Source of the DNA: an uncultured Alphaproteobacteria bacterium
GTDB taxonomy: Bacteria; Pseudomonadota; Alphaproteobacteria; Rs-D84
Direction: 5' to 3'
Assembly: GCA_944389515.1 (NCBI GenBank)
Contig: CALXMQ010000002.1
Location: 3,233-67,232, forward strand
Length of the DNA stretch: 64,000 bases
Shown here piece after piece: positions 1,060 through 44,212 of this stretch; within the stretch, counting starts at the first letter, position 1, and each line of letters opens with the position of its first letter. The position numbers and the translations under genes are program-made. Under the pieces are notes generated by a model. The model had not been told where the DNA came from. It made no database searches and saw only the letters and a list, made by a program, of their open reading frames with translations.

Positions 1060-1064
1060 CTTTT

Positions 1065-19712: not shown

Positions 19713-19720
19713 CGTTTTTA

Positions 19721-19729
19721 AGTATACCA
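19721..19729 (-). promoter_or_regulatory. Extended -10 element TGGTATACT, 8 nt upstream of the ATG at 19712
   Basis: Plus strand agtatacca at 19721-19729, in the 68-bp divergent intergenic region. Confidence 0.3.
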
Positions 19730-19745
19730 TATTTTGCATTAAATG

Positions 19746-19754
19746 TGATATAAT
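19746..19754 (+). promoter_or_regulatory. Extended -10 element TGATATAAT for the four-gene VirB6-like operon
   Basis: tgatataat at 19746-19754. A GAGAGG SD lies directly before the ATG at 19781. Confidence 0.35.
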
Positions 19755-19780
19755 TGAAAAGATAAAAAATATCAGAGAGG

Positions 19781-23702: not shown

Positions 23703-25000
23703 TGAATCTGATAAAAAAAATCTTTACCAAAATAACGATTATCGCGATGGCGATACTGATTATCGCGCCTGGGGCATATGCCGCCACCGCCAATGTACCA
23801 ATGACAGAAATTGGCGATTATGGCGATTGGATGACAGACACTAATTCCGCAGAATTTAATATGGCCATCGGAACAGATATGTCCGAATTTCAATCTGAAT
23901 TTCAGACAACCCAACTGGTGCCAGATTATGTACCAATAGAAGCCAAGGTTGGTATCGCACTGATAAACGCATTATCAATGATTGCAGATATATTGGATTC
24001 TTCGTTGGTACGCTTTGCGATAATATTTATGATTTTGGCATATATATTCTGGGTTATGTTCGAAGCATACAATATGATGACCAAGGGTTCCAGCGCACTG
24101 GATTTAACCGTGGATTTAATTAAAAAAGGTGCGGTTATTGCCATATGGTCAATTATATTAGTCCAAGGACCCGCCCAAGTATTTATGTGGATTATGGGGC
24201 CGATTATCAGTGTTGCAACATATATGTCTGATTTAATCTTGGGGGCGGTGACAAATGCATCAGGTGCGGCATTACCAGATACATGCATCGCGATACGCGA
24301 TTATGCGGCAACACATACATCACCAGGCGCGCTGATTGACGCCAATGCCGTGGCAAATATGTTATGTGTTCCAACACGATTATCTGGATTTTTCGTTACT
24401 GCGGTGTCCGCAGGATGGAAATGGATGTTGGCCGGCATTGGGCACAGTGCTTTTACCATGCTGGTTGGTGCGATATTTATTGTGATATTTATTTACAATG
24501 CGTTCAAATTTGCACTGATGGGTTTGGGTGTGATTATGGATTTATTCTTGGGCGTGCTGATGTTACCGTTCACGGCAATCGCAGAAACAATTAAACAAAC
24601 ATCATACAAAGGGATTGTTGGTGATATATTTAATGGATTTTTAGGGCTGTTCAAACCAGAAGCATTATCAAAACAAATTATGCGATTTATAAATGCGGCA
24701 ATATATTTTGTATCATTATCAATCGTGGTTGCATTATGTGCGGCGTTATTGTCATGGACCGTGGATGCAAATTTAGCATCTGAAATCCCCAGCATTGAAA
24801 ACACTGGATTTATGGTAACACTGTTGACAGGCGCATTGGTTGCGTATCTGGCAAACCGGGCCGACAGTATCGCCAAAGATTTAGGCGGCAGCATAGATGA
24901 CAGTTTTGGTAAAAAATTTGGCGATGATGCTAAAAAATTATGGGATAAAACCATTGGATATGGGAAAACAGTGGTTGACGCAATACGAAATAAAAAATAA
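23702..25000 (+). CDS. Polytopic membrane protein, VirB6/TrbL-like paralog E (432 aa, cleavable signal peptide)
   Basis: ORF 23645..25000, with the start moved to MNLIKKIF (TAATG overlap with paralog D). Signal ..IIAPGAYA|ATA and a central ..LGVLMLPFTAIAETIKQ segment. Confidence 0.5.
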   Translation: MNLIKKIFTKITIIAMAILIIAPGAYAATANVPMTEIGDYGDWMTDTNSAEFNMAIGTDMSEFQSEFQTTQLVPDYVPIEAKVGIALINALSMIADILDSSLVRFAIIFMILAYIFWVMFEAYNMMTKGSSALDLTVDLIKKGAVIAIWSIILVQGPAQVFMWIMGPIISVATYMSDLILGAVTNASGAALPDTCIAIRDYAATHTSPGALIDANAVANMLCVPTRLSGFFVTAVSAGWKWMLAGIGHSAFTMLVGAIFIVIFIYNAFKFALMGLGVIMDLFLGVLMLPFTAIAETIKQTSYKGIVGDIFNGFLGLFKPEALSKQIMRFINAAIYFVSLSIVVALCAALLSWTVDANLASEIPSIENTGFMVTLLTGALVAYLANRADSIAKDLGGSIDDSFGKKFGDDAKKLWDKTIGYGKTVVDAIRNKK

Positions 25001-28441: not shown

Positions 28442-31400
28442 TTAATCCATACTGACGCTTAGTATATCGCCATAATCACCGGCTTCGTCTGCGCCAATAT
28501 AACATTTGATATGACGCCCAACATTTTCCATCCATTCTTCATATGCTGCCTTTTCTGCTGCACTTAAATTGGACTGTTGGATATCGCGTGTGGCCTTGTT
28601 GACCAAGAATCCACCAGCCGCGCCAGTTACAACCGCACCAATCGTTGGCCCCAACCATTGCAAGTTTTTGCCATCTTTCGATTTTGTGGTGCCATCTGCA
28701 TTTTCACAATCAGACCGTAACAAATCCAAATCTGTGGTCGCCTGGGTCTTTAATGATGCAATTTGGCTGTTTGCGGTTGTGGCCGCTTCTTTCTGGGCCT
28801 GGGTTGCGTTGACCGATTTGCCGGCATCAATCGCTGTCTGGGCACTCAACCAATTATTCACAGACGTTTTTGCTGCATTTATAACACCTGTTGCAACATT
28901 CAAAGACTTGGCTTCTGATTCCATACGACTTAGATATGTTGACACATTTTGTGTTGTATTTCTGTTGATAGATTCTTGGATTGCATCTATGAACTTTACA
29001 GCATTATTATTGTCGGTATCTTGTTTGGCCAACCCAGTCAAATTACCAAACGCTGTACCTTGTTGGATTGCACCACCCAGGTACGCACCACCAATCGTGC
29101 CACCCACAGTGCCCAACAATGTTGTCCAGAATTCAACACGGTCATTTTTCTCTTTTTGGGCGGCTGTTTGATCTGCAACCGCGGCATTTGCCAATTCTTC
29201 TAATTCATCTGATGGTATCCAACTGCCGCATGTAAAGGTATCGCCGACGGCAAAGTATGTTGTTGCCCAATCTGCGCCCTTCATCGCATTTTGGATATCC
29301 ATATCATCAGATTGTAATCTGACCTGGACACTGCAAAATGAACCATACAAATCGTTACTGGGGTTGAAATCATTACGTTCCAAACCATTGATTGTATAAT
29401 CGTTTGGTACACGATTGTTTTTCAATTTAACCCACATAAACGTACTGCCGGTATCATTGCCAGTCATAATACCGCCATTGTTCGCAGCCAAGCACATATT
29501 TTGTTCTTGGGTCAATTTGCTGTTATATATGGCTTGGGCTTCTTTTTCCAAATCATATATCAAATCACGGAACAATGTTGATGCCGCCTGGTTTTGTACA
29601 TATGTTGAATATGATGTATAAACAGGTTCATCATAAATCTGGCCGTTGGCGTCAACGGAATAACATGTACCTTGGCTGCCATCATCGGCACTGCATAACG
29701 GATTTCCATTTTCGTCAGTTGCCTGGACTCTGTCTTCGGTTATGCTGGTTGCACCACCGGCGTCAATCCAACCTTCGCGAACATTGGATGCCGCACCCCA
29801 TGATGATGCAGATGCAGAATCCGCAATCTTTAATTTATTCTGTTCGATTGCCAAATGTTCTTTGCATACGTCAGCACTTTTAACGGTATCTAAACACAAT
29901 CCTAATACGACTGTGTAATCCAAAACACCACCGACTTTGTTCATGCTGCGATCAAATGATGTGTTACCAGTATCTGTCAATGATGACGCAACATCAGTAC
30001 GATTGCGATAGCAATTCATGTAATCTTCGCCACACATTGAACGCACACAACTTTTTGCCACAGATTCACATTGTGTACGCATCTGGGCAATCGCAGCGTC
30101 GCTGTAACTGGTGGCCAAAGATGCGTTTAATGACGCAATTACACCAATCGGGTCGCCACTGTTGTTGCTGTATTCAGGGAACAAAGTATCAAACGCATTG
30201 TTATCAATGTATGAATACGTATATCCACCTGTGCTGTCTGGGTTTGCCGCAGCATATTTACAATATGGGTCTGTATTTACAATATCAGAACATCCTGTTT
30301 TGATTTCATTATAACTGACCGAATTATTTATTGTTTTATCAACCGCGCCAAATACCTGGGAATAACACGCAGCCCCAGAACCACCGCCACAAACACGCAT
30401 TGCACAAGATTTAATTGTATCAGCGCAATTTTCTTTGGCTGTGGAATCAAATTCTTCGATTAAATCATTGATGCGCGATTTCATTGCAGAATTCATACGT
30501 GATGCGTATGCTTCGGCAAAGACGTCTTCTTGGTTGTTGGCGTCACTAAGCTGTGATGCAGTTGGCATTACACCATTGCCCAAGAAAGTCGCATAACAAT
30601 ATTTATTAGAACCAATCGTGTCTAAGCAAGAATTTCTGATGTACGATTGTACATTTGAACGTGTGTTTGTATCCGTGGACAATACGATTGAACTGACATC
30701 AACCTGGACCCCGGTATTGATTGCGTCAACCAAATCAATCGTTGAAATTGTCGCAGATTCATAACATTTATATGGGTTTTGTGCACACGCATTTAAGATA
30801 CATTGATCTGCAACCTTGTAACACGTAGAAACCGCATTTACCGCCGCCAGTGCCGCACCTTCGGTAATCATGATGCCAACACGACTGTTGCCAGCTGGAT
30901 TGGCAGTTGTTGTTGCACTGCCGAATAATTCTATTTTTCCTTCGGATTGACAACGTGCCAACGTAGAATCACAGTAAACCATTTGCTTTCTGAATTCACT
31001 GTTGGTGGTGCACAATTCAAAGTCCGCGCCACAAACATTATCACGTTGCAAACATGTTGTATATCTGCGTACACAGTCACTGGTGTTATACATATTAGAA
31101 ATTGCCGCCCCAGTTATCATTTGTCCCAAAACACTGCCATCTGTGGGGTATACGTAATCTGTAACTTCGCCATAAGAATTTTCAGATGCAACCGTCGATA
31201 ACGCCGTCGTCGATGATGTTCCAAACAATGCATTTACACCAGACGCGGTACACTGTGCCAATGTCCCCAGGCATTGCGCCATTTTTCCGTGGAACAAAAC
31301 CTTGGTCGTACATTCTTCGAAATTAGGTCCGCATACATCTGCATCTTCCAGACATGATGTGTACGCTTCGATACATTCGGCATTATCCAACAAATTCGAC

Positions 31401-31573
31401 GTTGTCGTTGTTGTTGTCGTCGTTGTACCCGTTAAATATGCCGTCATCGTAGGCAAACGTCTGGACGCCGTCGTCGCAGTATTCAAAACACTGGGGCGCG
31501 CAGTCAGCGCATATGCCGTCGGGATAACACTGCAAACAGCCAGAAAACCAACAATTTTGTTCAGAATTTTCAT
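28442..31573 (-). CDS. Large secreted/membrane-anchored cysteine-rich protein (1043 aa): signal peptide, poly-Thr, repeated Cys modules, two C-terminal Gly-zipper TM helices
   Basis: ORF 28442..31582 (GTG), with the start moved to ATG MKILNKIVGFLAVCSVIPTAYA| (GGAGTGAG SD). Two tandem C-x6-C-x6-C-x6-C-x12-C-x6-C modules and three C-x6-C-x4-C-x6/7-C modules. TM-like LLGTVGGTIGGAYLGGAI and LGPTIGAVVTGAAGGFLV. Confidence 0.65.
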   Translation of the reverse strand: MKILNKIVGFLAVCSVIPTAYALTARPSVLNTATTASRRLPTMTAYLTGTTTTTTTTTSNLLDNAECIEAYTSCLEDADVCGPNFEECTTKVLFHGKMAQCLGTLAQCTASGVNALFGTSSTTALSTVASENSYGEVTDYVYPTDGSVLGQMITGAAISNMYNTSDCVRRYTTCLQRDNVCGADFELCTTNSEFRKQMVYCDSTLARCQSEGKIELFGSATTTANPAGNSRVGIMITEGAALAAVNAVSTCYKVADQCILNACAQNPYKCYESATISTIDLVDAINTGVQVDVSSIVLSTDTNTRSNVQSYIRNSCLDTIGSNKYCYATFLGNGVMPTASQLSDANNQEDVFAEAYASRMNSAMKSRINDLIEEFDSTAKENCADTIKSCAMRVCGGGSGAACYSQVFGAVDKTINNSVSYNEIKTGCSDIVNTDPYCKYAAANPDSTGGYTYSYIDNNAFDTLFPEYSNNSGDPIGVIASLNASLATSYSDAAIAQMRTQCESVAKSCVRSMCGEDYMNCYRNRTDVASSLTDTGNTSFDRSMNKVGGVLDYTVVLGLCLDTVKSADVCKEHLAIEQNKLKIADSASASSWGAASNVREGWIDAGGATSITEDRVQATDENGNPLCSADDGSQGTCYSVDANGQIYDEPVYTSYSTYVQNQAASTLFRDLIYDLEKEAQAIYNSKLTQEQNMCLAANNGGIMTGNDTGSTFMWVKLKNNRVPNDYTINGLERNDFNPSNDLYGSFCSVQVRLQSDDMDIQNAMKGADWATTYFAVGDTFTCGSWIPSDELEELANAAVADQTAAQKEKNDRVEFWTTLLGTVGGTIGGAYLGGAIQQGTAFGNLTGLAKQDTDNNNAVKFIDAIQESINRNTTQNVSTYLSRMESEAKSLNVATGVINAAKTSVNNWLSAQTAIDAGKSVNATQAQKEAATTANSQIASLKTQATTDLDLLRSDCENADGTTKSKDGKNLQWLGPTIGAVVTGAAGGFLVNKATRDIQQSNLSAAEKAAYEEWMENVGRHIKCYIGADEAGDYGDILSVSMD
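31400..31426 (-). repeat. Nine consecutive Thr codons (ACG/ACA) in the 1043-aa CDS
   Basis: Plus strand cgt tgt cgt tgt tgt tgt cgt cgt tgt, encoding T53-T61. Confidence 0.8.
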
Positions 31574-31660
31574 TCGACTCACTCCATACTTATTGCTTTA
31601 AGTATAACATAAAATCATAATCAGACAAAGGAAAAATACACGAAATATTAAATACATTGT

Positions 31661-31692
31661 AAAAAAATCGGGGTGAAACAACCCCGTTTTTT
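31661..31692. terminator. Bidirectional hairpin terminator downstream of the rluD-like gene
   Basis: CGGGGT GAAACA ACCCCG, flanked by A7 (31661-31667) and T6 (31687-31692). Confidence 0.55.
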
Positions 31693-31695
31693 ATT

Positions 31696-32655
31696 TTATC
31701 CGATTTCATCCAATATTGCCTTGAATTCTGACATATCATCAGGCATATGTGCCTTGAAATGCATGAGCGCCCCTGTTACCGGATGTGTAAAATCTAAAAT
31801 TTCAGCATGCAGCATTTGTCCATTATGCGTTTTCAAAAATTCTAGCATGTCGGGATTTTTAACACTGGCCAATCGATTTGATGCGCGACCATATAATGGG
31901 TCACAGACAACTGGGAATCCATGCGCAGACAAATGTACACGGATTTGATGTGTACGCCCAGTCATCAATGTACAACGAAACAGTGATACACCCGCACGCG
32001 TCCATACGTCTGAAACATTTACAATCGTATGTGCCGGCTTGCCCCCCGATTTTACCATTGTCATTTTTTGGCGATTGCGCGATGAACGGGCGATGTTACC
32101 GGTTATATCTGCGCCATCCCAGTTTGGAACACCCCATACAAATGCGACATATTTCCGTGTTAAATTGTGCGCAGAAAACGTTTTTACCAACCCACGAAAT
32201 GCCGCATCTGATTTTGCAAATACCATTACACCACTGGTATCTTTGTCCAATCGATGCACGACACCTGGGCGTGTATCACCCCCCAATGCCGACAAATGTG
32301 TATGCGCCAATATATTTTGAACCAATGTGCCAGTTTTATTACCAGCCGATGGATACATAACAACCCCACGCGGTTTGTTTATCACAATTATGTCATCGTC
32401 TTCGAATAAAATATCTAAATCAAAATCGGATGAAATATTATCAGCGGCAACATTTGTTTTTTGTTCTGGCACAGTAACAATAATTTTATCCCCATGGCGC
32501 AAACGCGCGGCACGCTTTACCCCCACGCCATTTAATGTAACGTCAAAGCGCTGAATTTCACTGCGTGAAAATTCAGGTAATTGTGCCACCAAAAATTTAT
32601 CCAATCGCATACCTGCGTCGGTTTCTGGTACAATAAAATCACGGATATCTGGCAT
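31696..32655 (-). CDS. rluD: RluA-family 23S rRNA pseudouridine synthase (RluD-like, N-terminal S4 domain)
   Basis: GMRLDKFL S4-like N-terminus, catalytic HRLDKDTSGVMVFAK and GRTHQIRVH. Confidence 0.8.
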   Translation of the reverse strand: MPDIRDFIVPETDAGMRLDKFLVAQLPEFSRSEIQRFDVTLNGVGVKRAARLRHGDKIIVTVPEQKTNVAADNISSDFDLDILFEDDDIIVINKPRGVVMYPSAGNKTGTLVQNILAHTHLSALGGDTRPGVVHRLDKDTSGVMVFAKSDAAFRGLVKTFSAHNLTRKYVAFVWGVPNWDGADITGNIARSSRNRQKMTMVKSGGKPAHTIVNVSDVWTRAGVSLFRCTLMTGRTHQIRVHLSAHGFPVVCDPLYGRASNRLASVKNPDMLEFLKTHNGQMLHAEILDFTHPVTGALMHFKAHMPDDMSEFKAILDEIG

Positions 32656-33146
32656 TATTTATATTCGTCCCAATCAGGCCCCTTGTCACATTTACCCAAA
32701 TCAATGGTCAATTCACGCCCAGATGATTCCACCGGACACGTTAAAATACCGGTACTGACCGCCTGGTCTGCATCACGCGTGGCATTACGCCATGTAAATT
32801 TAATTTCATCTGGGGCATACAGGCATGCGATACGCAATTCTCCTTCGTGGCGATTGCGTGGACCAATCCATACACGTACCCCTTCGCCCAGGCCATAGCA
32901 CGGAAAACCATCCAAATAATATAAAACCAATCCACGACCAACAATACCAGATGATGGAATAAATTCACCACGATATTCAGAATATCGTAATCCGGTTAAA
33001 CCTTCCCAATCTGTACTGGTGGAAAAAATGCTGACCCGTGGCGCTGGTCCCGGGGTACTGGGCGTATCAGGTGTTTCAGAATCCGCACAAAACGCCGTGC
33101 CCACAATACTTAAAACCGCAATGACAGAAAATAAAATCTTTTTCAT
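32655..33146 (-). CDS. Secreted hypothetical protein (163 aa)
   Basis: Signal MKKILFSVIAVLSIVGTAFC|A, a Pro/Thr linker and 4 further Cys. Abuts the genes on both sides (operonic). Confidence 0.5.
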   Translation of the reverse strand: MKKILFSVIAVLSIVGTAFCADSETPDTPSTPGPAPRVSIFSTSTDWEGLTGLRYSEYRGEFIPSSGIVGRGLVLYYLDGFPCYGLGEGVRVWIGPRNRHEGELRIACLYAPDEIKFTWRNATRDADQAVSTGILTCPVESSGRELTIDLGKCDKGPDWDEYK

Positions 33147-33656
33147 TTATTCACCTTGGGCTTCTAATTCAACCGAAATCTTGTCAACGTTTGCCACCGG
33201 CACAGATAAAGTATGTGAAAACAAAACGTTATCACCAGCATCCAACAATGTTGCAGACGGCATAAAACGTTGACGATCAACAATTTTGCCGTTTGAATCA
33301 TATGAATAAACAATCAATCCAGGCACACCATATATTTGGTCAGAACGATTTAATACACGCCCAGATATCACAAAACGTGTGATATTATTTTCATCAGTTG
33401 TTGTTGTGACATCGTCCAATTCTGCAACCAATGGATGTTCGCGAATTTCTGTGATACGATGCTGATACATAACAGCCACCGCAAACACAATCGCCGCCAA
33501 CAACGCACACAGTGCCGCAATAAACACCAATATCGGACTGCGCCGTGGGGGACGTGACACCGTCCATGTATGCCCACATACAGCACACTTTACCGGCCCA
33601 GTCGGTACGGCATCCAAAGAATATTCTGTTTTGCAAAAATCACATACTGTCTTCAT
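33147..33656 (-). CDS. MJ0042-type zinc-ribbon protein with one TM helix (DUF3426-like architecture)
   Basis: CDFCKTEY..x..VKCAVCGHTW zinc ribbon, then PILVFIAALCALLAAIVFAVAV TM, then a roughly 100-aa C-terminal domain. Confidence 0.6.
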   Translation of the reverse strand: MKTVCDFCKTEYSLDAVPTGPVKCAVCGHTWTVSRPPRRSPILVFIAALCALLAAIVFAVAVMYQHRITEIREHPLVAELDDVTTTTDENNITRFVISGRVLNRSDQIYGVPGLIVYSYDSNGKIVDRQRFMPSATLLDAGDNVLFSHTLSVPVANVDKISVELEAQGE

Positions 33657-33676
33657 ATGACGATTTATACCATAAT

Positions 33677-34993
33677 TTATTCTAAATTCAACCGCTGATA
33701 TTTTGCACGAACCACGTTTTGAATTTCTTTGATTGCGTTCATATAATCTGATACAGTTGCGTTACCATTTGATGCAACCGCACCAAATATACGGGCAGAA
33801 TCTGTATCAGTGGCACCTTCGTTATATATCAATAATGATGCATTATCACCTAAATCACGCAAAGTAATATCAAATAAATGCGCAACATCTGAATTCAAGT
33901 CCCAAAAATAGTTTGAATTTCTGGAATCTTCTATTCTGTCACGTACCTGTAACCGTGGGGTTATAGAACCTGCGAACCCAACCGTTACATACATCGCATC
34001 AATCGTACCGGCTGTCATATCCAAAGATCTGTTTATATCCAATATTGCTGGACCATCTTCGTCAGAATAAATAGACAATCCCCCCAGCGTCATATTTGTA
34101 ACAAACAAATCGCCTGTGGTAAAACTGGTAAATTTACCAATGTCTGCCAAAGAAAAGTTTTTAGCAACTTCCATCGTTCGTGAATCAGATGACAATGTCC
34201 CTGATATGGTTGCATTACGTACATTTAATATTTTATCTAATGTCGTACGGTTTTGGAAAATAACATCTGTGGCAACCGTAACCCCCAGTGTCAAAGTTTC
34301 ACCGAATTCTGCGGCATTTGTGTTAAAAAATCCAATATTTGAAATATCATGTCCACCTAAATTCAATCCCGACAACATTGTCGCATCAGATGAATTATCA
34401 GTTGGTACACGATATAAATACAACGCATTATCTGTGTTGACCGCAGTTGTTTCAACAATGCCGCCGGTTGTATCTAAACCCAAATCAATCGAATCTGCAC
34501 GCCATGCACCAAATGTCCCATATGCACGATTGCCTTCGATAAATCCCATTGTGTCACCACCCATTGCAACAATTTCACGTGTTCGCATTGGTGTTATTTC
34601 ATCAGACGAATACACAATTACACCCTGTAACGTTGCACGATTTTCAACATCATTTGATTTCAAAATACGCAACTGGTATTTTGTATCAGATGCCAAATCT
34701 GGTGCCAATCCATATTCTGATAAATCAGCAATGTTCACACGCGTTATATTACGACCAACGGTATTTAATAATTCTGTACGATTATCCACAATATATCGTT
34801 CCAGCGCAGTTTGAATATCCGACATTTGTTCTGCAATCGCGATATTTTCTGCGCGTACAACCAAACTTTGTTGATATCTGAAAATAAACGGCATGATAAT
34901 GGCCGCCAATGCAACACTCATCAACAATTCAACCAACATAGAACCACGTTGGTTATGTGTTGTATCTGAAAAAAATCTGCACATTTTTATCAT
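33677..34993 (-). CDS. Large prepilin-like (pseudopilin/modular pilin) protein 3 (438 aa)
   Basis: ORF 33677..35026, with the start moved to MIKMCRFF (ATGA overlap with the upstream stop). Has ..HNQRG|SMLVELLMSVALAAIIMPFIF with Glu at +5. The C-terminal half is repetitive and beta-rich, with LNLGGHDISNIG. Confidence 0.55.
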   Translation of the reverse strand: MIKMCRFFSDTTHNQRGSMLVELLMSVALAAIIMPFIFRYQQSLVVRAENIAIAEQMSDIQTALERYIVDNRTELLNTVGRNITRVNIADLSEYGLAPDLASDTKYQLRILKSNDVENRATLQGVIVYSSDEITPMRTREIVAMGGDTMGFIEGNRAYGTFGAWRADSIDLGLDTTGGIVETTAVNTDNALYLYRVPTDNSSDATMLSGLNLGGHDISNIGFFNTNAAEFGETLTLGVTVATDVIFQNRTTLDKILNVRNATISGTLSSDSRTMEVAKNFSLADIGKFTSFTTGDLFVTNMTLGGLSIYSDEDGPAILDINRSLDMTAGTIDAMYVTVGFAGSITPRLQVRDRIEDSRNSNYFWDLNSDVAHLFDITLRDLGDNASLLIYNEGATDTDSARIFGAVASNGNATVSDYMNAIKEIQNVVRAKYQRLNLE

Positions 34994-36195
34994 TGCATTG
35001 TTTCCTGGGGCATCAATGTTTGCCAATCCGCAGACATAATCGCGTTAAATTCTGATGTATTTGGTGCTGGGGGTACTGTGGCACGATCTAAATACAAAGC
35101 AGAAAATGCCGGCGGCGTGTATGATGGAAATGTCCACGACCCAATACGAACAGGCGCCGTGGTTGACATCAGCAATTCACCAGATATTGTTAAACCAAAA
35201 TCTTCGTAAAAAACAATTTCTTCGGTTGATAAATATGATGTTATAACCGTATGTGCCGTAATACCAGTAAATCCACTGATTGTACGGGTTGAATCAGATT
35301 TTAATATTAAATCCCCAGATACATTTACAGAATCAACCACTGTTGCACGATCTGTAATAATCCGTCCCTGGGTTGTATATGATTTGCCATTTAATGTATC
35401 TGCGTATATATTTCTGAACCCAGATACATCACCCGTCACACGCATCGAATTAAATGTTGCCTTGTCCCCATCTAAATTCGCGCCAGATGAAAAGAACAAT
35501 GTATCTGCACCCAATGTTGGGGTCTCAATAAACTGGGTTGATGCGCCGTTTATTTTAGCAGACTTGGCAACCACAGAACCAACATCATATACGCGATTTC
35601 CGTTCATATTCAAATCACGCATCATCATGTTCAATTTTTCTTCGCCTGTTTCGGTACGATGTAAATATCTGGTTTTATCTTCGCCATCTAAATCACGCGA
35701 TATCCGATATATTAAATTCCCTGGTCTGAAATCTGGGGCCGCCACCGCCCATGTGCGTCCATATGCAATACCATCATTTCCAACAACCGCGGCATCTGTG
35801 CCGATATGACGCGCAATACGTGTTGTTTGTAAATCAGTACCGGTTAAATCAAATGCCATATATACATCTGTGATTGTTGCGCCATTGACTGTATATTTAT
35901 CAATAAATCCAGCAACAGGCATCGTAGATATTTCATCTAATTCTTGTTCTGATAATTTTATTTGCGCATTTTCTGGCCAATCATTTTGATTCAGTCGTAC
36001 AAAGTTCAACACATTATCACGCAAATCTATGATTTTATTTGCCATTGCCATATCACGCAACGTATCGTTTGTATCTGATATTTGATTATATAAAAATGGC
36101 GTTGCCATTGCGACAATAGCCATGGCCAGTAATACTTCCAGCATACTGGCACCACGTGCGGAATCTGTAAAAATTTTTGTTTTACATACAGTCAC
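34990..36195 (-). CDS. Large prepilin-like (pseudopilin/modular pilin) protein 2 (401 aa)
   Basis: GTG start. Has ..DSARG|ASMLEVLLAMAIVAMATPFLY with Glu at +5. The C-terminal half is beta-rich, with LNMNGNRVYDVG. Confidence 0.55.
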   Translation of the reverse strand: MTVCKTKIFTDSARGASMLEVLLAMAIVAMATPFLYNQISDTNDTLRDMAMANKIIDLRDNVLNFVRLNQNDWPENAQIKLSEQELDEISTMPVAGFIDKYTVNGATITDVYMAFDLTGTDLQTTRIARHIGTDAAVVGNDGIAYGRTWAVAAPDFRPGNLIYRISRDLDGEDKTRYLHRTETGEEKLNMMMRDLNMNGNRVYDVGSVVAKSAKINGASTQFIETPTLGADTLFFSSGANLDGDKATFNSMRVTGDVSGFRNIYADTLNGKSYTTQGRIITDRATVVDSVNVSGDLILKSDSTRTISGFTGITAHTVITSYLSTEEIVFYEDFGLTISGELLMSTTAPVRIGSWTFPSYTPPAFSALYLDRATVPPAPNTSEFNAIMSADWQTLMPQETMQ

Positions 36196-37591
36196 TGCGC
36201 CCGTCCATCAAACATTGTTTTATATCAATTCTTTGTTCCAACCGATGCCAAAAAACATATTGGCATATAATATATTGTGATAAAGATTTTGCGTTATAAC
36301 GTAACCCTAAATCAGTTACTATGCGTCGACAATCAATGGTTTTATCATCATCCGCAGATGGTTTTTCAATTATTTTTATCCCATCGTTACTGATTGTTTC
36401 CAACAACACATCGGGCAGCACAGAATCCCCAGCAGGACGAATATCCAATATAACTTCGCCTGTTTCACCATTGTTTAACGCATCTGACGTTTGGTCACGC
36501 ATTGTGATATTTGATACAATCAATGTACCGGTTTCGATACCGCTGCGTGAACTGTATTCCAAATCATCAGGGTCAATATACACATCTTGGCCACGCGATG
36601 CATCTATGTAAGAACTGATATCCAACCGTTCGACACTGAAATTCATATTTTCACTGACAACATCGCCGGCAACGTTCCATTGTAATGGACCAGAAAAACT
36701 GGTACGCCCAGCCGTCATAGCAAAATCATACGCAGATGCAGAATTTGACGTAAAATTCCCTGTATCACCAAACATAGATATTGTTCGCGCAGATATATCA
36801 CCAACATACAATGCACCACGTGTCAATGATAATGCAGATTCACCCAACGCACCTTGAAACACGGCACGATTTGCAGACATAACATCAATCGTACTGCGAA
36901 CTTTACGTCCGTCTTCGACACCAAAAACAGACAATGTATTAAATTGGCCGGTATCAAATTCACCACGGCGTGCAAAAACTTCGCCACCATTATTAAATGA
37001 AAAACCGCCCATATCTAAATTTGTTAAAAATGCACTGTTATCCAAATTTTGTTCGTTACGTCGTACGACATCGGAATACGCAGAATCCAATGCCAATCCA
37101 ACCATAATTGTGTTACCAGAAACACTGGCATAAAAACCAATTCTGCGCGCCAATTCTGCCAGTTGAACCGCCGATAAATCGCCACCCGATAATTGCAAAT
37201 ACGCCGTTACTGATACCGGTGTTTTATTTATCACCAAAGAAATATCTTGACCCAATGCAGTACGTGGAATAAAACCCAATGGCAAACCATATGATTCTAG
37301 CAAATCTGAAAAAGTATTCCCAGACACAACAGTTGTATTATATGGCAAATCATTTGCACGTTCGCGTATAAATATACGTGCAGCTGTTTGTGCGACTTCG
37401 ACCTTTTGCGTTGATGCATACATTTGTGCATCAATATCACGCGCCGCCAGTCGCCCGGCAAAAAACGGGATAAACGAAAATATCAATGTCAGTGCTAATA
37501 ACGCCTGTAATAAAAAATTTCCGTTTTGTCGCGACAAATCAGGCATCCCTCCTACATCGATGATGTTAGCAAGCAAAAAAAAAGATTGCAA
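36182..37591 (-). CDS. Large prepilin-like (pseudopilin/modular pilin) protein 1 (469 aa; alternative ATG start at 37546)
   Basis: Has ..SRQNG|NFLLQALLALTLIFSFIPFF with Gln at +5. TTG start at 37591, or ATG at 37546 directly after GGAGGG. The C-terminal half has LDMGGFSFNNGG. Confidence 0.5.
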   Translation of the reverse strand: MQSFFLLANIIDVGGMPDLSRQNGNFLLQALLALTLIFSFIPFFAGRLAARDIDAQMYASTQKVEVAQTAARIFIRERANDLPYNTTVVSGNTFSDLLESYGLPLGFIPRTALGQDISLVINKTPVSVTAYLQLSGGDLSAVQLAELARRIGFYASVSGNTIMVGLALDSAYSDVVRRNEQNLDNSAFLTNLDMGGFSFNNGGEVFARRGEFDTGQFNTLSVFGVEDGRKVRSTIDVMSANRAVFQGALGESALSLTRGALYVGDISARTISMFGDTGNFTSNSASAYDFAMTAGRTSFSGPLQWNVAGDVVSENMNFSVERLDISSYIDASRGQDVYIDPDDLEYSSRSGIETGTLIVSNITMRDQTSDALNNGETGEVILDIRPAGDSVLPDVLLETISNDGIKIIEKPSADDDKTIDCRRIVTDLGLRYNAKSLSQYIICQYVFWHRLEQRIDIKQCLMDGRSDCM

Positions 37592-37686
37592 TCAGTTTTA
37601 AGATACATTATTATTCACCATGTTGATAAACGATAGTGAATACTATCCAAACAAAAAAATATTTCCTGATAACAAAAAAAACGAAT

Positions 37687-38040
37687 ATGCAAAACAAAAA
37701 AAATCAATCGTCTGTGGGGCTGATGATTCAGCGCTGTCATAAATGGCGTCAAAAAAGAAAACAATATATGGATCAGGCACGCCAAACATCTGATGAAATT
37801 GAACGTGAACGCTTGATGCAGGCGGCCGAACATTACGGACGCATCGTAAATGCAGAACAGGGTCGCATCGATTCCACACGTGACCCAAAAGATAAAACAC
37901 CTGTGGTCGAAGATACACCTGATGTATCAGACGCATCTGATGCACCTGATATTTCTGACACGTCGGATACCCCAGACACATCAGATACAAATGATGATGA
38001 AGAAGTTGTTTTTCCAGACTTCATTACGGGCGAAAAATAA
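37687..38040 (+). CDS. DUF4167-like protein with an acidic D-x-x repeat tail
   Basis: ORF 37636..38040, with the start moved to MQNKKNQSS. The segment ..YMDQARQTSDEIERERLMQAAEHYGRI.. matches the Y..LA.....GD....E...QHAEHY.RI pattern I recall for alphaproteobacterial DUF4167. Confidence 0.55.
   Translation: MQNKKNQSSVGLMIQRCHKWRQKRKQYMDQARQTSDEIERERLMQAAEHYGRIVNAEQGRIDSTRDPKDKTPVVEDTPDVSDASDAPDISDTSDTPDTSDTNDDEEVVFPDFITGEK
37912..37992 (+). repeat. Nine consecutive in-frame D-x-x triplets (9-nt period): DTP DVS DAS DAP DIS DTS DTP DTS DTN
   Basis: Read directly from gat aca cct gat gta tca gac gca tct ... Confidence 0.8.
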
Positions 38041-39677: not shown

Positions 39678-40136
39678 ATGATTCAAGAACGCGGTGCATC
39701 TATGATTGAAATTATCGGTGTGCTGGCCATCGCTGGGTTGATGAGTGCCGCTGCAATCGGCATGTACAATGTTATTCGCGGCAACCAGGCACGCAAAATT
39801 GCGTCTGTGGAAATGGAACAGATTGTAAAAAATACAGAGTTACTGATGGGGATGCGTGGTGATTATACTGGATTATCTGTGGATTATTTGGTATCTGCCG
39901 GCGCGTTACAAAATGCAAATGCCCCGATTGGTGGCGACGGGTGGTCTGTGGCGGCAATAAATAATGGTGCTGGGTTTGCAATAAACTTGGTCGATTTAAG
40001 TGAAGGTGAATGCCAATTCTTTACCACAACACCACCCAAATGGGCAACACGGATATTGGTAAATAATGTTGAATTGACAACAACTGTGAACTGCTTTTCC
40101 ACAGATACAAATCAAATATCATTTATTGTTGAATAA
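39678..40136 (+). CDS. Type IV pilin-like protein (152 aa)
   Basis: MIQERG|ASMIEIIGVLAIAGLMSAAAIGMY has Glu+5, Gly+14 and Tyr+24 aligned with the canonical FTLIELMIVVAIIGILAAIAIPQY. C-terminal Cys pair (GEC..x30..VNC). AGGAG SD. Confidence 0.7.
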   Translation: MIQERGASMIEIIGVLAIAGLMSAAAIGMYNVIRGNQARKIASVEMEQIVKNTELLMGMRGDYTGLSVDYLVSAGALQNANAPIGGDGWSVAAINNGAGFAINLVDLSEGECQFFTTTPPKWATRILVNNVELTTTVNCFSTDTNQISFIVE

Positions 40137-40145
40137 TTGGAATAT

Positions 40146-40820
40146 ATGAAATTACAAAATGTTTTGATTTTACCGATTTTATTATGTATTGCCGGATGTG
40201 CGCAATATCACAGTCCTGCGCGAAATACATGGCCACAATATTTGCGTGGCGCCAGTTTTACAGACATGACCGAAGTTGCCCGTATTGCAAAGCGACCTGT
40301 ATTTCTGGGGGCGGGTGGAAAATTGATATCTTCGATTGAAATGCCTGCAAATATGGAATACGGCGATAAAGTACAGAACGATACCGCCATCAGTGTAAAT
40401 TATATGGCAAATTTGGAATATGAATTATATGACGCATTGCGCAAGCCTGGGATTTCTGTTCAGCGCGCCGGCACAGATGTTGTTGTAATTCTGGTGCGTG
40501 ACGCAATTATGGAATTAAATGTTGGCGATATTTCTTCTGATGGCGCAGATACATTGAAAACAATTTCTAAAATTTTGAAAAAATACGATGCAACGTTCTT
40601 AGAAATTGCTGGGTATACTGATTCTATGGCTGCATCCCAGGCAGATGCTTTGTCATTAGATATGGCGCAAAGGGTTGGTGTATATTTATCACAACATGGG
40701 GTAAATACTGCACGTATGTTTATTGTTGGTCGTGGCGCCGCACGTCCCATTGCCGCCCAGGATGATATTGGACGTCTGACCAACCGGCGTATTGAAATCA
40801 GGTTGGTTCCAGCACGATAA
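40146..40820 (+). CDS. OmpA-family peptidoglycan-binding lipoprotein
   Basis: Lipobox LLCIAGC|A. C-terminal GYTDSMA....ALSLDMAQRVGVYLSQHGV...R....GRGAARPIA......NRRIEI. Confidence 0.75.
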   Translation: MKLQNVLILPILLCIAGCAQYHSPARNTWPQYLRGASFTDMTEVARIAKRPVFLGAGGKLISSIEMPANMEYGDKVQNDTAISVNYMANLEYELYDALRKPGISVQRAGTDVVVILVRDAIMELNVGDISSDGADTLKTISKILKKYDATFLEIAGYTDSMAASQADALSLDMAQRVGVYLSQHGVNTARMFIVGRGAARPIAAQDDIGRLTNRRIEIRLVPAR

Positions 40821-42712: not shown

Positions 42713-43165
42713 ATGATAGACGCAAAAGGTATTGAAAAAGTTATTCCGCATCGCGGTGCCATGCGGTTGGTTGATGAAATTCGCGAATATAATGAAACCA
42801 GCGGTGTTGGTATAAAGTACGTTCGTGATGATGAATTTTGGTGTGCAGGTCATTTTCCGGGCAATCCGATTATGCCGGGCGTATTGACCATCGAAGCATT
42901 GGCACAAACAGCATGTTTCATTGCATTGGCACGTATGGGTGTCAACGATGGTAAAACATTGGGATATTTTACAACAATGGAAAAAATTAAATTTTCACAT
43001 TTTGTAAAACCTGGGGACGTTTTAGAATTACATGTAGAATTAGTTATGTCAAAAATGCGTCTGTATAAATTCCATGGCATTGCAATGGTCAGTGGGAAAA
43101 AAGTATCCGAAGCAACATTTACTGCAATTATGGATTCGCATAACCCAATGGAAAAGCAAGTATAA
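42713..43165 (+). CDS. fabZ: 3-hydroxyacyl-ACP dehydratase FabZ
   Basis: IPHRGAMRLVDEI and GHFPGNPIMPGVL motifs. Confidence 0.9.
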   Translation: MIDAKGIEKVIPHRGAMRLVDEIREYNETSGVGIKYVRDDEFWCAGHFPGNPIMPGVLTIEALAQTACFIALARMGVNDGKTLGYFTTMEKIKFSHFVKPGDVLELHVELVMSKMRLYKFHGIAMVSGKKVSEATFTAIMDSHNPMEKQV

Positions 43166-43196
43166 AAAAAATCCCACATTTGTGGGATTTTTTTAT
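43164..43196. terminator. Bidirectional terminator between fabZ and the TPR gene
   Basis: A8-ATCCCAC..GTGGGAT-T8 palindrome. Confidence 0.6.
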
Positions 43197-43207
43197 TTTT
43201 TAATTTA

Positions 43208-44212
43208 TTATTGTTGTTCCAAATCAGCAATCAAATTTTGAATTCTGTTCATACTGGCATTATCAACCAATGCCGCGGCGATTGTGTATGCAGAATCCAA
43301 ATCACTGCGTGCCGCACTTGTATTACCGATTGCTAAATTTAATGCCGCAGATTTTTCAAAATATGACATCGCATTACTGGACAACCCTTCGCGTTCAGCG
43401 GCGCTTGTTGCGCCCTGGATTTGTTCTGATATCACACGAATTGCCGATGCATAATCGTTGATTGCATCACTGTAATTGCCCATTTGTGTGTACGCTTCGG
43501 CACGTTCTGCATATACAGATGGTGTTACAACCCCATCTGGGCGCGCCAATGAATTTGTGTAATCAGCAACAGCGCCCTGCCAATTCTTTAACCACAAATT
43601 TAACTGGCCACGTTTGGCATACAAATCGCGCATTTGTAATACAGGTGATGGGTTGGCTGTTTGTGCCGCCAATGCGTTGTTTATATCAGATAATGCCGTA
43701 TTATAATCTTCCAATCTGATATTTAATAATGCACGGTCATAATACGCAACAGCATTTACCGCATCCATTTCAATCGCGGTATTAAAATCAGACAATGCAT
43801 TGCGATAATCAGCAGTTTGCATGTACGCTTCGCCACGCAATATATACATATCAACTGTTGCATTACCTGCGTCAATCGCAGTTGTTAAATCGGTAATGGC
43901 GTCTGATACATTGCCAGAAACCAATTTTGTTTTTGCCTGTTCATAATAATCAGTTGGTTGCAATAATGCTTCTTCGGTAATTTCAACATTATTCGTTGAC
44001 GTGTTTGTATCGATACACGTGCTGTGGCTGCGCCCCAAGATATAAAACGTTGCCGCAATAAAGAATAAAATTATAAACCAATAAACATATATCGACAAAG
44101 ACCACGGATTAAATGTTGATTGCTTTGCACTTGTATTTTTAGGTGCAATTTTAGCCCCCGATTGTGCGCCGCGCCGTGTATTCAGATTTTTCTTGGTGGT
44201 GTTTTTTTTCAT
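43208..44212 (-). CDS. Membrane-anchored tetratricopeptide-repeat protein
   Basis: Basic N-terminus, TM LSIYVYWFIILFFIAATFYIL, then at least 5 TPR-like units (..A..DY..AI......A.AYY.RA..). Confidence 0.65.
   Translation of the reverse strand: MKKNTTKKNLNTRRGAQSGAKIAPKNTSAKQSTFNPWSLSIYVYWFIILFFIAATFYILGRSHSTCIDTNTSTNNVEITEEALLQPTDYYEQAKTKLVSGNVSDAITDLTTAIDAGNATVDMYILRGEAYMQTADYRNALSDFNTAIEMDAVNAVAYYDRALLNIRLEDYNTALSDINNALAAQTANPSPVLQMRDLYAKRGQLNLWLKNWQGAVADYTNSLARPDGVVTPSVYAERAEAYTQMGNYSDAINDYASAIRVISEQIQGATSAAEREGLSSNAMSYFEKSAALNLAIGNTSAARSDLDSAYTIAAALVDNASMNRIQNLIADLEQQ

What the first reader, a model, noticed from the sequence alone, without database searches (positions are those of the whole stretch)
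33677..37591. Operon of three large (400-470 aa) proteins with prepilin-type N-termini and beta-rich C-terminal modules
Each protein starts with a short charged leader ending in Gly, followed by ~21 hydrophobic residues with Glu/Gln at +5: RG|ASMLEVLLAMAIVAMATPF, RG|SMLVELLMSVALAAIIMPF and NG|NFLLQALLALTLIFSFIPF. This is the class III (prepilin) signal layout used by type IV pilins, T2SS pseudopilins and TadE/F/G. The genes overlap (14 nt and ATGA). The proteins are mutually similar after the helix (..SDLLESYGLP.. and ..ADLSEYGLAP..). Their repetitive beta-rich C-terminal halves share an L-[ND]-[ML]-x-G-x-x-[IVF]-x-[ND]-x-G motif (LDMGGFSFNNGG, LNMNGNRVYDVG, LNLGGHDISNIG). That motif reminds me of one found in phage tail-fibre or adhesin proteins. 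They are far larger than ordinary minor pilins, so they look like modular pilins carrying a functional tip or adhesin module. No PilB/C/D/Q, Gsp or Tad/Cpa machinery is in the window.
Basis: partly seen in the sequence, partly recalled or inferred. Interest (0 to 1): 0.75.

Follow-up and report, generated by a model that had tools for sequence, protein, structure and literature searches.

The report
Three tandem PilV-like pilus adhesin genes
A tiny-genome, uncultured gut bacterium (Candidatus Enterousia) carries three tandem, unannotated genes that are very divergent relatives of PilV, the adhesin subunit of the thin pilus of conjugative plasmids, so they are probably how this dependent organism grips a partner cell.

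Summary
Three overlapping genes on the minus strand (P1 36182-37546, P2 34990-36195, P3 33677-34993) each encode a variable leader, an invariant Gly, about 20 hydrophobic residues and a 380-430 aa beta-rich body.

Across about 80 species, Gly(-1) is invariant in all three. Position +5 is Glu in P2 (81/82) and P3 (82/82), and always Gln in P1.

No curated model names them. Profile-profile comparison shows they are remote homologues of Pfam Shufflon_N (PilV, the type IVb thin-pilus tip adhesin of R64/IncI plasmids and PAPI-1): P3 98.6%, P2 98.5%, P1 91.9%.

The organism is Ca. Enterousia (order Rs-D84, genomes under 1 Mb). Relatives carry an R64-type unit, PilO2-PilP-ATPase-platform. It lies about 5 kb from the operon in three fetched contigs of two related species (L069; L076/L091). 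Synteny suggests it lies just beyond this window.

A fourth prepilin-like gene (39678-40136) is the candidate major pilin.

No prepilin peptidase or secretin was located. Cleavage, tip position and adhesion are inferred.

Verdict: a new variant of a known kind, of moderate interest.

The parts
36182..37546 (-). P1: PilV-like type IVb minor pilin paralogue, 454 aa, leader MPDLSRQNG|NFLLQ, with Gln instead of Glu at +5. It is the most divergent of the three.
   Evidence: ORF and AGGAGG-ATG start. There are 922 homologues, all unnamed. Gly(-1) and Gln(+5) are invariant in 79/79 orthologues. hhalign against the Shufflon_N set gives 91.9%, E 7e-7.
34990..36195 (-). P2: PilV-like type IVb minor pilin paralogue, 401 aa, MTVCKTKIFTDSARG|ASMLE. 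It carries the signature YLHRTETGEEKLNMMMRDLNMNGNRVYDVG.
   Evidence: 1093 homologues. G15 and E20 are invariant in alignment A1. hhalign against Shufflon_N proteins gives 98.5%, E 2.6e-15 over 253 columns. The AlphaFold model has helix 18-72 plus a beta-sheet at pLDDT about 90. It overlaps P1 by 14 nt.
33677..34993 (-). P3: PilV-like type IVb minor pilin paralogue, 438 aa, MIKMCRFFSDTTHNQRG|SMLVE. It carries the signature YLYRVPTDNSSDATMLSGLNLGGHDISNIG and is the closest of the three to plasmid PilV.
   Evidence: ATGA overlap with P2. phmmer with annotated pKF707 PilV gives 2.7e-9. hhalign against the Shufflon_N set gives 98.6%, E 8e-16. G(-1) and E(+5) are present in 82/82 orthologues.
33147..33656 (-). 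Zinc-ribbon + one TM helix + DUF3426/FxLYD-like domain protein (169 aa), 20 nt downstream of P3. Role unknown; it always travels with the operon.
   Evidence: Sub-threshold Pfam and NCBIfam hits. Present next to P3 in 82/82 related loci.
32655..33146 (-). Secreted or lipoprotein-like 163-aa protein of unknown function. It abuts the previous gene and is always co-located with the operon.
   Evidence: No family hit. Signal-like N-terminus. Present in 82/82 loci.
31669..31686 (-). First terminator-like hairpin with a strong GC-rich stem downstream of the operon, after rluD (31696-32655). P1-P2-P3, the two small genes and rluD may therefore form one transcription unit.
   Evidence: Terminator scan: CGGGGTTGTTTCACCCCG followed by a T-run. 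The minus-strand sites inside the unit have weaker stems (3 GC pairs). This is a consensus match only.
39678..40136 (+). Fourth prepilin-like gene (152 aa, MIQERG|ASMIEIIGVLAIAG). Candidate major pilin, the PilS equivalent.
   Evidence: Motif scan. G(-1) and E(+5) are invariant in 78/78 orthologues. Plasmid PilS hits its orthologues weakly by phmmer, 2e-4. In L069, L076 and L091 it is co-directional with the OmpA-lipoprotein, Skp and PilO2-PilP-ATPase-platform genes. Only sub-threshold N_methyl and GspH hits.
40137..40820 (+). OmpA-family peptidoglycan-binding lipoprotein immediately after the small pilin. Its adjacency is conserved, but a role in the pilus is only a possibility.
   Evidence: Pfam OmpA 2.7e-11. 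Conserved next to the pilin gene in the related loci.

Best explanation
P1, P2 and P3 are three paralogous, very divergent members of the PilV (Shufflon_N) family. PilV is the large minor pilin that serves as the adhesin of R64/IncI/PAPI-1-type type IVb 'thin' pili.

Shown here:
- The genes sit in the chromosome of Candidatus Enterousia (Alphaproteobacteria, order Rs-D84, genomes under 1 Mb).
- They form a translationally coupled operon that is conserved in every related genome fetched.

Proposed mechanism (inferred):
1. Each protein is inserted in the inner membrane by its class III signal.
2. A prepilin peptidase cuts it after the invariant Gly.
3. The R64-type machinery builds it into a thin pilus. 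That machinery is PilO2, PilP, a BfpD-like assembly ATPase and a PilR/T2SSF platform, encoded as a separate four-gene unit. The 152-aa pilin (39678-40136) would be the major subunit.
4. P1 has an invariant Gln in place of Glu5, as the Glu5-less cap subunit GspK of type II secretion does. This hints that P1 sits at the very tip, with P2 and P3 beneath it.
5. The conserved beta-rich C-terminal bodies would bind a surface structure of a partner cell. They would hold this metabolically dependent bacterium to its partner, possibly so that its VirB/VirD4 type IV secretion system can dock, as PilV does for conjugation.
For: Signal layout:
- Variable leaders, invariant Gly(-1), Glu(+5) in P2 and P3 or Gln(+5) in P1, and Pro(+18), over about 80 species.

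Homology:
- hhalign of P2 against four Pfam-verified Shufflon_N proteins gives 98.5%, E 2.6e-15, 253 columns. P3 gives 98.6% and P1 91.9%.
- An exhaustive profile search of 1.84 billion representatives found only 199 relatives. All keep G-x4-E, and the list includes bona fide Shufflon_N proteins.
- The bridging protein P0494 matches annotated pilV 'pilus tip adhesin' genes in 2772 plasmids.
- Annotated pKF707 PilV hits P3 directly.
- The signature YLYRxxVPGxPELNxMxTDLDMNNNxINNV is present in P2 and P3 and partly in P1.

Structure:
- alpha1 helix 18-72 plus a beta-sheet at pLDDT about 90. The best PDB hit is a minor pseudopilin of the Xcp pseudopilus, but it is weak.

Machinery in the clade:
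- PF06864 PilO2, a PilP-like protein (TIGR03021, 1.1e-7), a T2SSE ATPase and a T2SSF platform, in the R64 order.
- The ATPase is closest to BfpD among solved structures, 7.9e-77 against about 1e-45 for GspE and PilB-type (PilF) ATPases.
- The unit lies about 5 kb from the operon in L069, L076 and L091.
- Matching contig lengths suggest it shares a contig with the operon in several genomes.
- PF06864 is specific to the R64 thin-pilus variant (PMC3984277).

Function of PilV:
- PilV is a minor-pilin adhesin that selects target cells (PMC9045228).

Lifestyle:
- Rs-D84 bacteria lack most biosynthesis and appear partner-dependent (PMC12306168).
Against: - No curated model reaches its threshold. There is no Pfam Shufflon_N hit at all. 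N_methyl scores 13.7 bits against a 21.2 cut-off, and GspI scores 20.8 against 44.35.
- No prepilin peptidase (A24), secretin/PilN, PilM, PilL or PilT was found in the window, in 10 kb either side of it, or in about 100 related loci.
- The PilO2-PilR unit was not seen directly in the window's own genome. I only saw the OmpA-UDG-IF3 junction that flanks it in a relative.
- The published survey of Rs-D84 genomes reports type IV pili in another lineage but not in Rs-D84 (PMC12306168).
- The C-terminal halves are modelled at low confidence and match nothing in PDB or BFVD significantly.
- There is no shufflon, and the C-termini are not hypervariable. The variable-adhesin logic of plasmid PilV therefore does not simply transfer.
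- Tip position, the 1:1:1 complex, the ligand and the link to the type IV secretion system are all inference.
Confidence: 0.72

Rival explanations
1. They are minor pseudopilins of a type II secretion-like system. On this reading they form a GspK/I/J-style tip complex that primes a short periplasmic pseudopilus to push proteins out, and they are not surface adhesins.
For: - Weak NCBIfam hit of P2 residues 15-61 to GspI (4e-4, below cut-off).
- The best Foldseek PDB hit is a chain of the XcpGHIJK pseudopilus model (prob 0.82, E 0.087).
- P1 lacks Glu5, as GspK does.
- There are three co-transcribed tip-like subunits.
- No secretin of the PilN kind was seen.
Against: - The accompanying machinery carries PilO2 (PF06864) and a PilP-like protein, which are specific to R64-type type IVb pili (PMC3984277).
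- The ATPase is far closer to BfpD than to GspE.
- No GspC, D, L or M was seen in any locus.
- Profile homology points to PilV, not to GspH-K.
- The proteins are much larger than GspI and GspJ.
Confidence: 0.08
2. They are relics. The pilus machinery has been lost or repurposed in this lineage, and P1-P3 now act as ordinary signal-anchored (bitopic) envelope proteins that are never cleaved or polymerised.
For: - No peptidase or secretin was found in the DNA I could reach.
- The PilO2-PilR unit is absent from the window and from 10 kb either side.
- The genome is extremely reduced (PMC12306168).
Against: - Gly(-1) and Glu/Gln(+5) are invariant over about 80 species while the leaders drift. That is the pattern expected only if processing and filament packing are still selected.
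- All three genes are intact and 52-85% conserved along their whole length.
- The PilO2-PilP-ATPase-platform unit is very conserved: the 120 best cluster representatives are at least 87% identical to the query ATPase.
- The window's own strain has the same OmpA-UDG-IF3 junction that abuts the unit in L097.
Confidence: 0.08
3. They are Tad/Flp-type pseudopilins (TadE/F/G-like) of a tight-adherence pilus, which is the usual pilus of Alphaproteobacteria.
For: - NCBI's pipeline names many of the clade's ATPases 'Flp pilus assembly complex ATPase component TadA'.
- The host is an alphaproteobacterium.
- TadG-like proteins can be large.
Against: - No TadE (PF07811) hit at E<=1.
- The ATPase is 542 aa with a C-terminal tetracysteine motif and matches BfpD, GspE and PilB over its full length. 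It is not a short TadA.
- There is a single T2SSF platform gene plus PilO2 and PilP, not TadB/TadC/RcpA/TadZ.
- Homology is to PilV.
Confidence: 0.03
4. The C-terminal modules are phage tail-fibre-derived receptor-binding domains grafted onto a pilin stem.
For:
- The top BFVD hit is a tail fibre protein, and several weak hits are tail or baseplate proteins.
Against: - That hit is not significant (E 0.012, prob 0.41, TM 0.15) and the query region is modelled at low confidence.
- No PHROG family reached significance for P1-P3 (the best whole-protein E-values were 0.04-0.05, for families of unknown function).
- The motif itself is the PilV/Shufflon_N signature.
Confidence: 0.05

Closest known systems
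PilV, the shufflon minor pilin / tip adhesin of the R64 (IncI1), TP114 (IncI2) and PAPI-1 type IVb thin pili (Pfam PF04917 Shufflon_N)
   Same: - Class III signal with G|xxxxE.
- Size of about 400-470 aa.
- An N-terminal region of about 270 residues that is homologous at the profile level.
- The shared YLxR...LNxM...LxMxGxxIxN signature.
- The same kind of machinery (PilO2, PilP, ATPase, platform) in the clade.
- Both live in the gut.
   Different: - Too divergent for the Pfam model.
- Three full-length tandem paralogues, with no shufflon repeats in the operon and no recombinase recognised among the window ORFs scanned.
- The C-termini are conserved rather than switchable.
- P1 has Gln5.
- The genes are chromosomal, scattered among housekeeping genes, and found in all 198 species-representative genomes that matched the P2 profile, all of them Enterousia-like MAGs. 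They are not on a plasmid or ICE.
- The PilL/M/N/T/U equivalents were not found.
GspK-GspI-GspJ (and the PilVWX-type) minor-pilin tip complexes of T2SS and type IVa pili
   Same: - Several co-transcribed minor subunits, one of which lacks Glu5.
- Weak GspI and Xcp pseudopilin similarity.
- A plausible priming or tip role.
   Different: - No homology above thresholds.
- All three proteins here are large PilV-like paralogues of one another rather than three distinct small families.
- The machinery is type IVb of the R64 kind.
CofB / TcpB, large type IVb minor pilins that form a homotrimeric tip (CFA/III, TCP)
   Same: Large minor pilins of type IVb systems with an N-terminal pilin domain plus beta-rich C-terminal domains. 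The tip-initiator and adhesin concept is cited in PMC9045228.
   Different: - No sequence or structural match was found.
- Here three different paralogues could make a heterotrimer. This is a hypothesis only.

Membership tests
Type IV pilin-like proteins (class III signal peptide) | Short, variable, positively charged leader ending in Gly, followed by about 20 hydrophobic residues | tested here: met
   Present in P1, P2, P3 and the 152-aa protein. Gly is invariant in 78-82 orthologues of each while the leaders vary.
Type IV pilin-like proteins (class III signal peptide) | Glu at +5 of the mature protein | tested here: met
   P2 81/82, P3 82/82, 152-aa pilin 78/78. P1 has an invariant Gln (79/79), as in Glu5-less cap subunits such as GspK.
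Type IV pilin-like proteins (class III signal peptide) | Curated N-terminal methylation models (PF07963 / TIGR02532) above threshold | tested here: not met
   P2 scores 13.7 bits against 21.2 for PF07963 and 11.6 against 16.3 for TIGR02532. P1 and P3 have no hit.
Type IV pilin-like proteins (class III signal peptide) | Pilin fold: long N-terminal alpha1 helix packed on an antiparallel beta-sheet | tested here: met
   AlphaFold model of P2: helix 18-72, then strands to residue 168, at pLDDT about 90. Foldseek confirmation is weak: the top hit is an Xcp pseudopilin at E 0.087.
Type IV pilin-like proteins (class III signal peptide) | Cleavage (and methylation) by an A24 prepilin peptidase encoded in the genome | not testable with these tools
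   None was found in the window, in 10 kb either side, or in about 100 related loci. The rest of the genome could not be read. Some R64-type systems (PAPI-1, Burkholderia Tfp7) also lack their own peptidase in the cluster (PMC3984277).
PilV / Shufflon_N (PF04917) | Match to the Pfam model above the gathering score | tested here: not met
   No PF04917 hit for P1-P3 at E<=1.
PilV / Shufflon_N (PF04917) | Homology to verified members at profile level, including the YLYR...ELNxMxTDLDMxxNxIxN signature | tested here: met
   hhalign gives P3 98.6% (8e-16), P2 98.5% (2.6e-15 / 1.7e-15) and P1 91.9% (7e-7). phmmer from pKF707 PilV to P3 gives 2.7e-9. The signature is seen.
PilV / Shufflon_N (PF04917) | 3' shufflon (inverted sfx repeats plus Rci recombinase) that switches C-termini | tested here: not met
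   Only short, imperfect chance-like repeats in 33500-37800. No integrase was recognised among the window ORFs scanned with Pfam.
PilV / Shufflon_N (PF04917) | Genomic association with R64-type assembly genes (PilO2 PF06864, PilP, PilQ ATPase, PilR platform) | tested here: met
   The unit is found in the clade in at least five genomic contexts. It is about 5 kb from the operon in L069, L076 and L091. For the window's own genome this is only inferred from the OmpA-UDG-IF3 junction.
PilV / Shufflon_N (PF04917) | Acts as pilus adhesin for a cell-surface ligand | not testable with these tools
   Known for plasmid PilV (PMC9045228).
T2SS minor pseudopilins GspH/I/J/K | Match to Gsp pseudopilin models and gsp operon context (GspC, D, L, M) | tested here: not met
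   GspI scores 20.8 bits against a 44.35 cut-off and only on the N-terminal helix. No Gsp-specific genes in any locus.
Tad pseudopilins TadE/F/G | TadE-like N-terminal domain (PF07811) and tad locus | tested here: not met
   No PF07811 hit. The machinery is PilO2, PilP, a long ATPase and a single platform gene.
Phage tail fibre / receptor-binding proteins | Sequence or fold similarity to tail-fibre families | tested here: inconclusive
   PHROGs gave nothing significant. The top BFVD hit is a tail fibre, but at E 0.012, prob 0.41 and TM 0.15, on a low-confidence region.

The most novel reading that the evidence does not exclude
A conjugative-plasmid-type thin pilus has been domesticated as a core organelle of an obligately partner-dependent gut alphaproteobacterium. 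Its switchable single PilV has been replaced by a hard-wired heterotrimeric tip made of three PilV paralogues, with the Gln5 subunit P1 as the cap. That tip recognises the partner or host cell and docks the cell's VirB/VirD4 type IV secretion system for contact-dependent exchange.
Probability: 0.25. Interest if true: 0.75.

Novelty: new variant of a known kind. Interest (0 to 1): 0.52.

Why it matters
Candidatus Enterousia and the Rs-D84 order are common in human and animal guts. Their genomes are under 1 Mb and lack most biosynthesis, and nobody knows what they live on or with (PMC12306168).

In so small a genome, four conserved pilin genes plus a dedicated assembly unit are a large investment. 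This locus is therefore a strong candidate for the attachment device that defines the organism's partner.

It would extend the PilV and R64 thin-pilus family from mobile elements of Gamma- and Betaproteobacteria to a core chromosomal function in a reduced alphaproteobacterium. It also gives names to about 1000 'hypothetical proteins'.

Practically, it offers handles for finding the partner: recombinant C-terminal domains as bait, and antibodies for imaging.

It also shows a different evolutionary answer to adhesin diversity: three fixed paralogues instead of a DNA-inversion shufflon.

Tried and rejected
- Direct curated-family assignment. Pfam, NCBIfam and PHROGs gave only sub-threshold hits for P1-P3.
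- Sequence search of PDB with the P2 profile: nothing. The Shufflon_N set has no solved relative beyond the pilin helix.
- First AlphaFold run with a shallow alignment. The C-terminal half came out at pLDDT about 30 and Foldseek found nothing. The deeper alignment improved the model, but PDB and BFVD matches stayed non-significant.
- Shufflon idea: no convincing inverted repeats.
- Hunt for a prepilin peptidase, secretin and assembly ATPase by motif and TM scans over all fetched loci. Only the ATPase turned up.
- Extension of the window by look-ups with edge genes: no pilus genes within 10 kb on either side.
- Two metagenome scans for distant family members found nothing. One alignment was too diverse to search with.
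- The supplementary tables of the Rs-D84 paper are not held, and the 2023 Enterousia paper is not in the library.
- The five tandem membrane proteins at 18423-25000 gave no Pfam hit, so a VirB6 assignment could not be made.

Full report
**What is there.** The minus strand of 33677-37591 carries three consecutive ORFs.
- P1 most likely starts at the ATG at 37546, just after AGGAGG. It is 454 aa, with leader MPDLSRQNG|NFLLQ.
- P2 starts at the GTG at 36195 and is 401 aa (MTVCKTKIFTDSARG|ASMLE). It overlaps P1 by 14 nt.
- P3 starts at the ATG at 34993, in an ATGA overlap with P2. It is 438 aa (MIKMCRFFSDTTHNQRG|SMLVE).
- These lengths match the gene calls in relatives, 455/403/438 aa.
- The three proteins are weakly but really similar: BLASTP 4e-6, 4e-5 and 0.019, and family-to-family hhalign 87-98%.
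It is a 152-aa protein at 39678-40136 (MIQERG|ASMIE).

**Organism and conservation.**
- P2 has 1093 and P1 922 homologues in the 5.8-billion-protein set. All are unnamed or labelled 'hypothetical protein, Alphaproteobacteria bacterium'.
- In the species-representative genome collection the P2 profile hits 198 species. The 80 listed are all uncultured alphaproteobacterial MAGs from guts, many named Candidatus Enterousia. One is a closed 958,618-bp chromosome.
- Published work places Enterousia in order Rs-D84. These bacteria have genomes under 1 Mb, lack most biosynthetic pathways and are presumed to depend on a partner. That survey reports type IV pili in another lineage but not in Rs-D84 (PMC12306168).
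- In 82 related loci, P1, P2, P3, the downstream zinc-ribbon/DUF3426-like gene and the 163-aa gene are always together. rluD is with them in 81 loci. On the other side, the 134-aa acidic protein, dnaX, the 152-aa pilin and an OmpA lipoprotein are present in 78-79 loci.
- The first strong terminator-like hairpin comes after rluD, at 31669-31686.

**The signal.** Over 79-82 orthologues per family the leaders vary freely. Gly(-1) is invariant. Position +5 is Glu in P2 (81/82), P3 (82/82) and the small pilin (78/78). In P1 it is Gln in 79/79. Pro(+18) is invariant in P1-P3. This is the selection pattern of a class III (prepilin) signal. Curated models do not reach threshold, however: N_methyl scores 13.7 against 21.2 bits, TIGR02532 scores 11.6 against 16.3, and GspI scores 20.8 against 44.35.

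**What family.**
- An exhaustive HMM search with the P2 family profile against 1.84 billion cluster representatives found only 199 proteins at E<=1e-3.
- Nearly all full-length N-termini inspected keep the G-x4-E layout.
- Four of the distant hits are genuine Pfam Shufflon_N (PF04917) proteins, with E from 1e-12 to 2.5e-35. Two of them also pass or approach N_methyl.
- One of these, P0494, matches annotated 'pilV: shufflon system plasmid conjugative transfer pilus tip adhesin' genes in 2772 plasmids.
- Profile-profile comparison of the P2 alignment with these four proteins gives 98.5% probability, E 2.6e-15, over 253 columns. My own mafft and hhalign runs give P3 98.6% (8e-16), P2 98.5% and P1 91.9% (7e-7).
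- The annotated PilV of plasmid pKF707 finds P3 directly by phmmer, 2.7e-9 in a small database.
- The Shufflon_N signature YLYRxxVPGxPELNxMxTDLDMNNNxINNV corresponds to P2 YLHRTETGEEKLNMMMRDLNMNGNRVYDVG and P3 YLYRVPTDNSSDATMLSGLNLGGHDISNIG. It corresponds partly to P1 FLTNLDMGGFSFNNGG.
A phage tail-fibre origin got no significant support (PHROGs; BFVD top hit E 0.012, TM 0.15).

**Structure.** With a shallow alignment only residues 10-170 of P2 were confident. With a deeper alignment, mean pLDDT rose to 72.9. The model has a 55-residue alpha1 helix (18-72) packed on a beta-sheet, at pLDDT about 90 up to residue 170. After that come long beta-hairpins at pLDDT 55-79. The best PDB match is a chain of the XcpGHIJK pseudopilus model, but it is weak (prob 0.82, E 0.087). 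No solved structure exists for the family.

**Machinery.**
- None is in the window or within 10 kb either side.
- A Walker-motif scan of the related loci turned up a 542-aa ATPase in L069 and L076.
- It belongs to a four-gene unit: PAP_PilO/PilO2 (PF06864), a 220-233-aa protein matching TIGR03021 PilP (1.1e-7, just under cut-off), the T2SSE ATPase (1.6e-61) and a T2SSF platform. This is the order pilO-pilP-pilQ-pilR of R64-type clusters, as annotated on pKF707.
- pKF707 PilQ, PilR and PilO2 hit these proteins at 7e-56, 1e-49 and 2e-6. PilS weakly hits the 152-aa pilin orthologues at 2e-4.
- Among solved structures the ATPase is closest to BfpD, the type IVb assembly ATPase (7.9e-77). GspE and the PilB-type ATPase PilF score about 1e-45.
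- PF06864 is regarded as specific to the R64 thin-pilus variant of type IVb pili (PMC3984277).
- The unit is very conserved: the 120 best cluster representatives are at least 87% identical to the query ATPase.
- It appears intact in at least five genomic contexts.
- In L069, L076 and L091 it directly follows small pilin - OmpA lipoprotein - Skp, about 5 kb from P1-P3.
- Matching contig lengths suggest that ATPase and operon share a contig in several further genomes.
- For the window's own strain, contig BRZ_LE NODE_170 is 100% identical to the last 4 kb of the window. About 10-11 kb beyond the window end it shows OmpA(-)-UDG-IF3. In L097 and L098 the same junction abuts the platform gene. The unit therefore probably lies about 11-16 kb to the right of the window, but I could not read that far.
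- A prepilin peptidase, a PilN-type secretin, PilL, PilM and PilT were not found in any DNA I could reach.
- Some R64-type systems also lack their own peptidase gene in the cluster and borrow one (PMC3984277).

**Interpretation.**
- Shown: a class III signal layout under strong selection; homology of all three proteins to PilV; a pilin-like N-terminal domain in the model; an R64-type assembly unit in the clade, physically linked to the locus in some genomes.
- Inferred: cleavage; incorporation into a thin pilus built from the 152-aa pilin; a tip position, with the Gln5 protein P1 as cap by analogy with Glu5-less GspK; adhesion to a partner cell through the C-terminal bodies.
- In plasmids, PilV is the adhesin that selects the recipient cell and stabilises mating so that the type IV secretion system can act (PMC9045228).
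- The window also encodes a VirD4 coupling protein (45655-47880), and relatives carry VirB4. An analogous 'grab and dock' role is therefore plausible but untested.
- Unlike plasmid PilV there is no shufflon, and the C-terminal parts are about as conserved as the N-terminal parts. This argues for fixed ligands or a structural role.

**Rivals.**
- T2SS-type pseudopilins are disfavoured by the PilO2/PilP machinery, the BfpD-like ATPase and the PilV homology.
- Tad pseudopilins are disfavoured by the lack of any TadE hit, and the machinery is not Tad-like despite the NCBI 'TadA' labels.
- Uncleaved relic membrane anchors are disfavoured by the invariant Gly and Glu/Gln.
- Tail-fibre-derived modules have no significant support.

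**Verdict.** These are three tandem, unannotated, highly divergent PilV-family minor pilins of an R64-type type IVb pilus, fixed in the core chromosome of a reduced-genome gut symbiont. This is a new variant of a known kind. It is of moderate interest in general, and of higher interest for those trying to work out how Enterousia lives.

Noticed in passing
It lies between dnaX and an OmpA lipoprotein. Gly(-1) and Glu(+5) are invariant in 78 orthologues, and +1 is Arg in most of them, which is unusual for a pilin.
   Followed up: partly
window 18423-25000 (both strands) and 45655-47880 (+): Five consecutive polytopic membrane proteins of 401-493 aa (one on the minus strand, four on the plus strand) with no Pfam hit. 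Only two of them are detectably similar (BLASTP 8e-13). A VirD4/TraG coupling protein lies at 45655-47880, and relatives carry VirB4. This resembles the scattered type IV secretion system with multiple VirB6-like genes of Rickettsiales (from my own knowledge), but the VirB6 identity was not confirmed.
   Followed up: partly
window 28442-31582 (-), 1065-3140 (-), 310-1092 (-): Large secreted, Cys-rich proteins with no family hit: 1046 aa with 38 Cys and a poly-Thr run, 691 aa with 27 Cys and a Gln-rich segment, and 260 aa with 9 Cys. BLASTP finds no similarity between them. The 1046-aa one follows the pilin operon in 71 of 82 related loci.
   Followed up: no
window 8651-9409 (-): A ComF-like protein (double zinc ribbon plus phosphoribosyltransferase domain) retained in a genome under 1 Mb. 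It may bear on DNA uptake.
   Followed up: no
window 3207-4985 (+): A BspA-type leucine-rich-repeat protein (592 aa). This kind of surface protein is often involved in cell-cell contact.
   Followed up: no
window 37636-38040 (+): A 134-aa protein transcribed divergently from P1. It has a basic N-terminal half and an acidic tail of short Ser/Thr-Asp-rich repeats (DVSDASDAPDISDTSDTPDTSDTNDD). It is conserved in 79 of 82 loci and has no family hit.
   Followed up: no
proteins P0456, P0463-P0467, P0469 and others: A sizeable set of roughly 740-1240-aa proteins from unnamed metagenomic organisms share the same PilV-like N-terminus (QKGSMMVEALAMLGLITMVTPILYKKAAERTTELQDIN...). They look like giant PilV-like pilins. 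No Pfam hit on the one I examined in detail (P0463).
   Followed up: partly
locus L051 (CAVGNU010000002.1): A contig carrying the Enterousia-type operon is deposited under the name Bacteroides fragilis. This is almost certainly a mis-binned or mislabelled record.
   Followed up: no
window 43165-43208 compared with L083, L069 and L097: The PilO2-PilP-ATPase-platform unit moves as a block between species: after Skp, after a TPR protein, after LpxC, or before OmpA-UDG-IF3. In the window, fabZ abuts the TPR gene exactly where the unit sits in L083, so this is a rearrangement breakpoint.
   Followed up: partly
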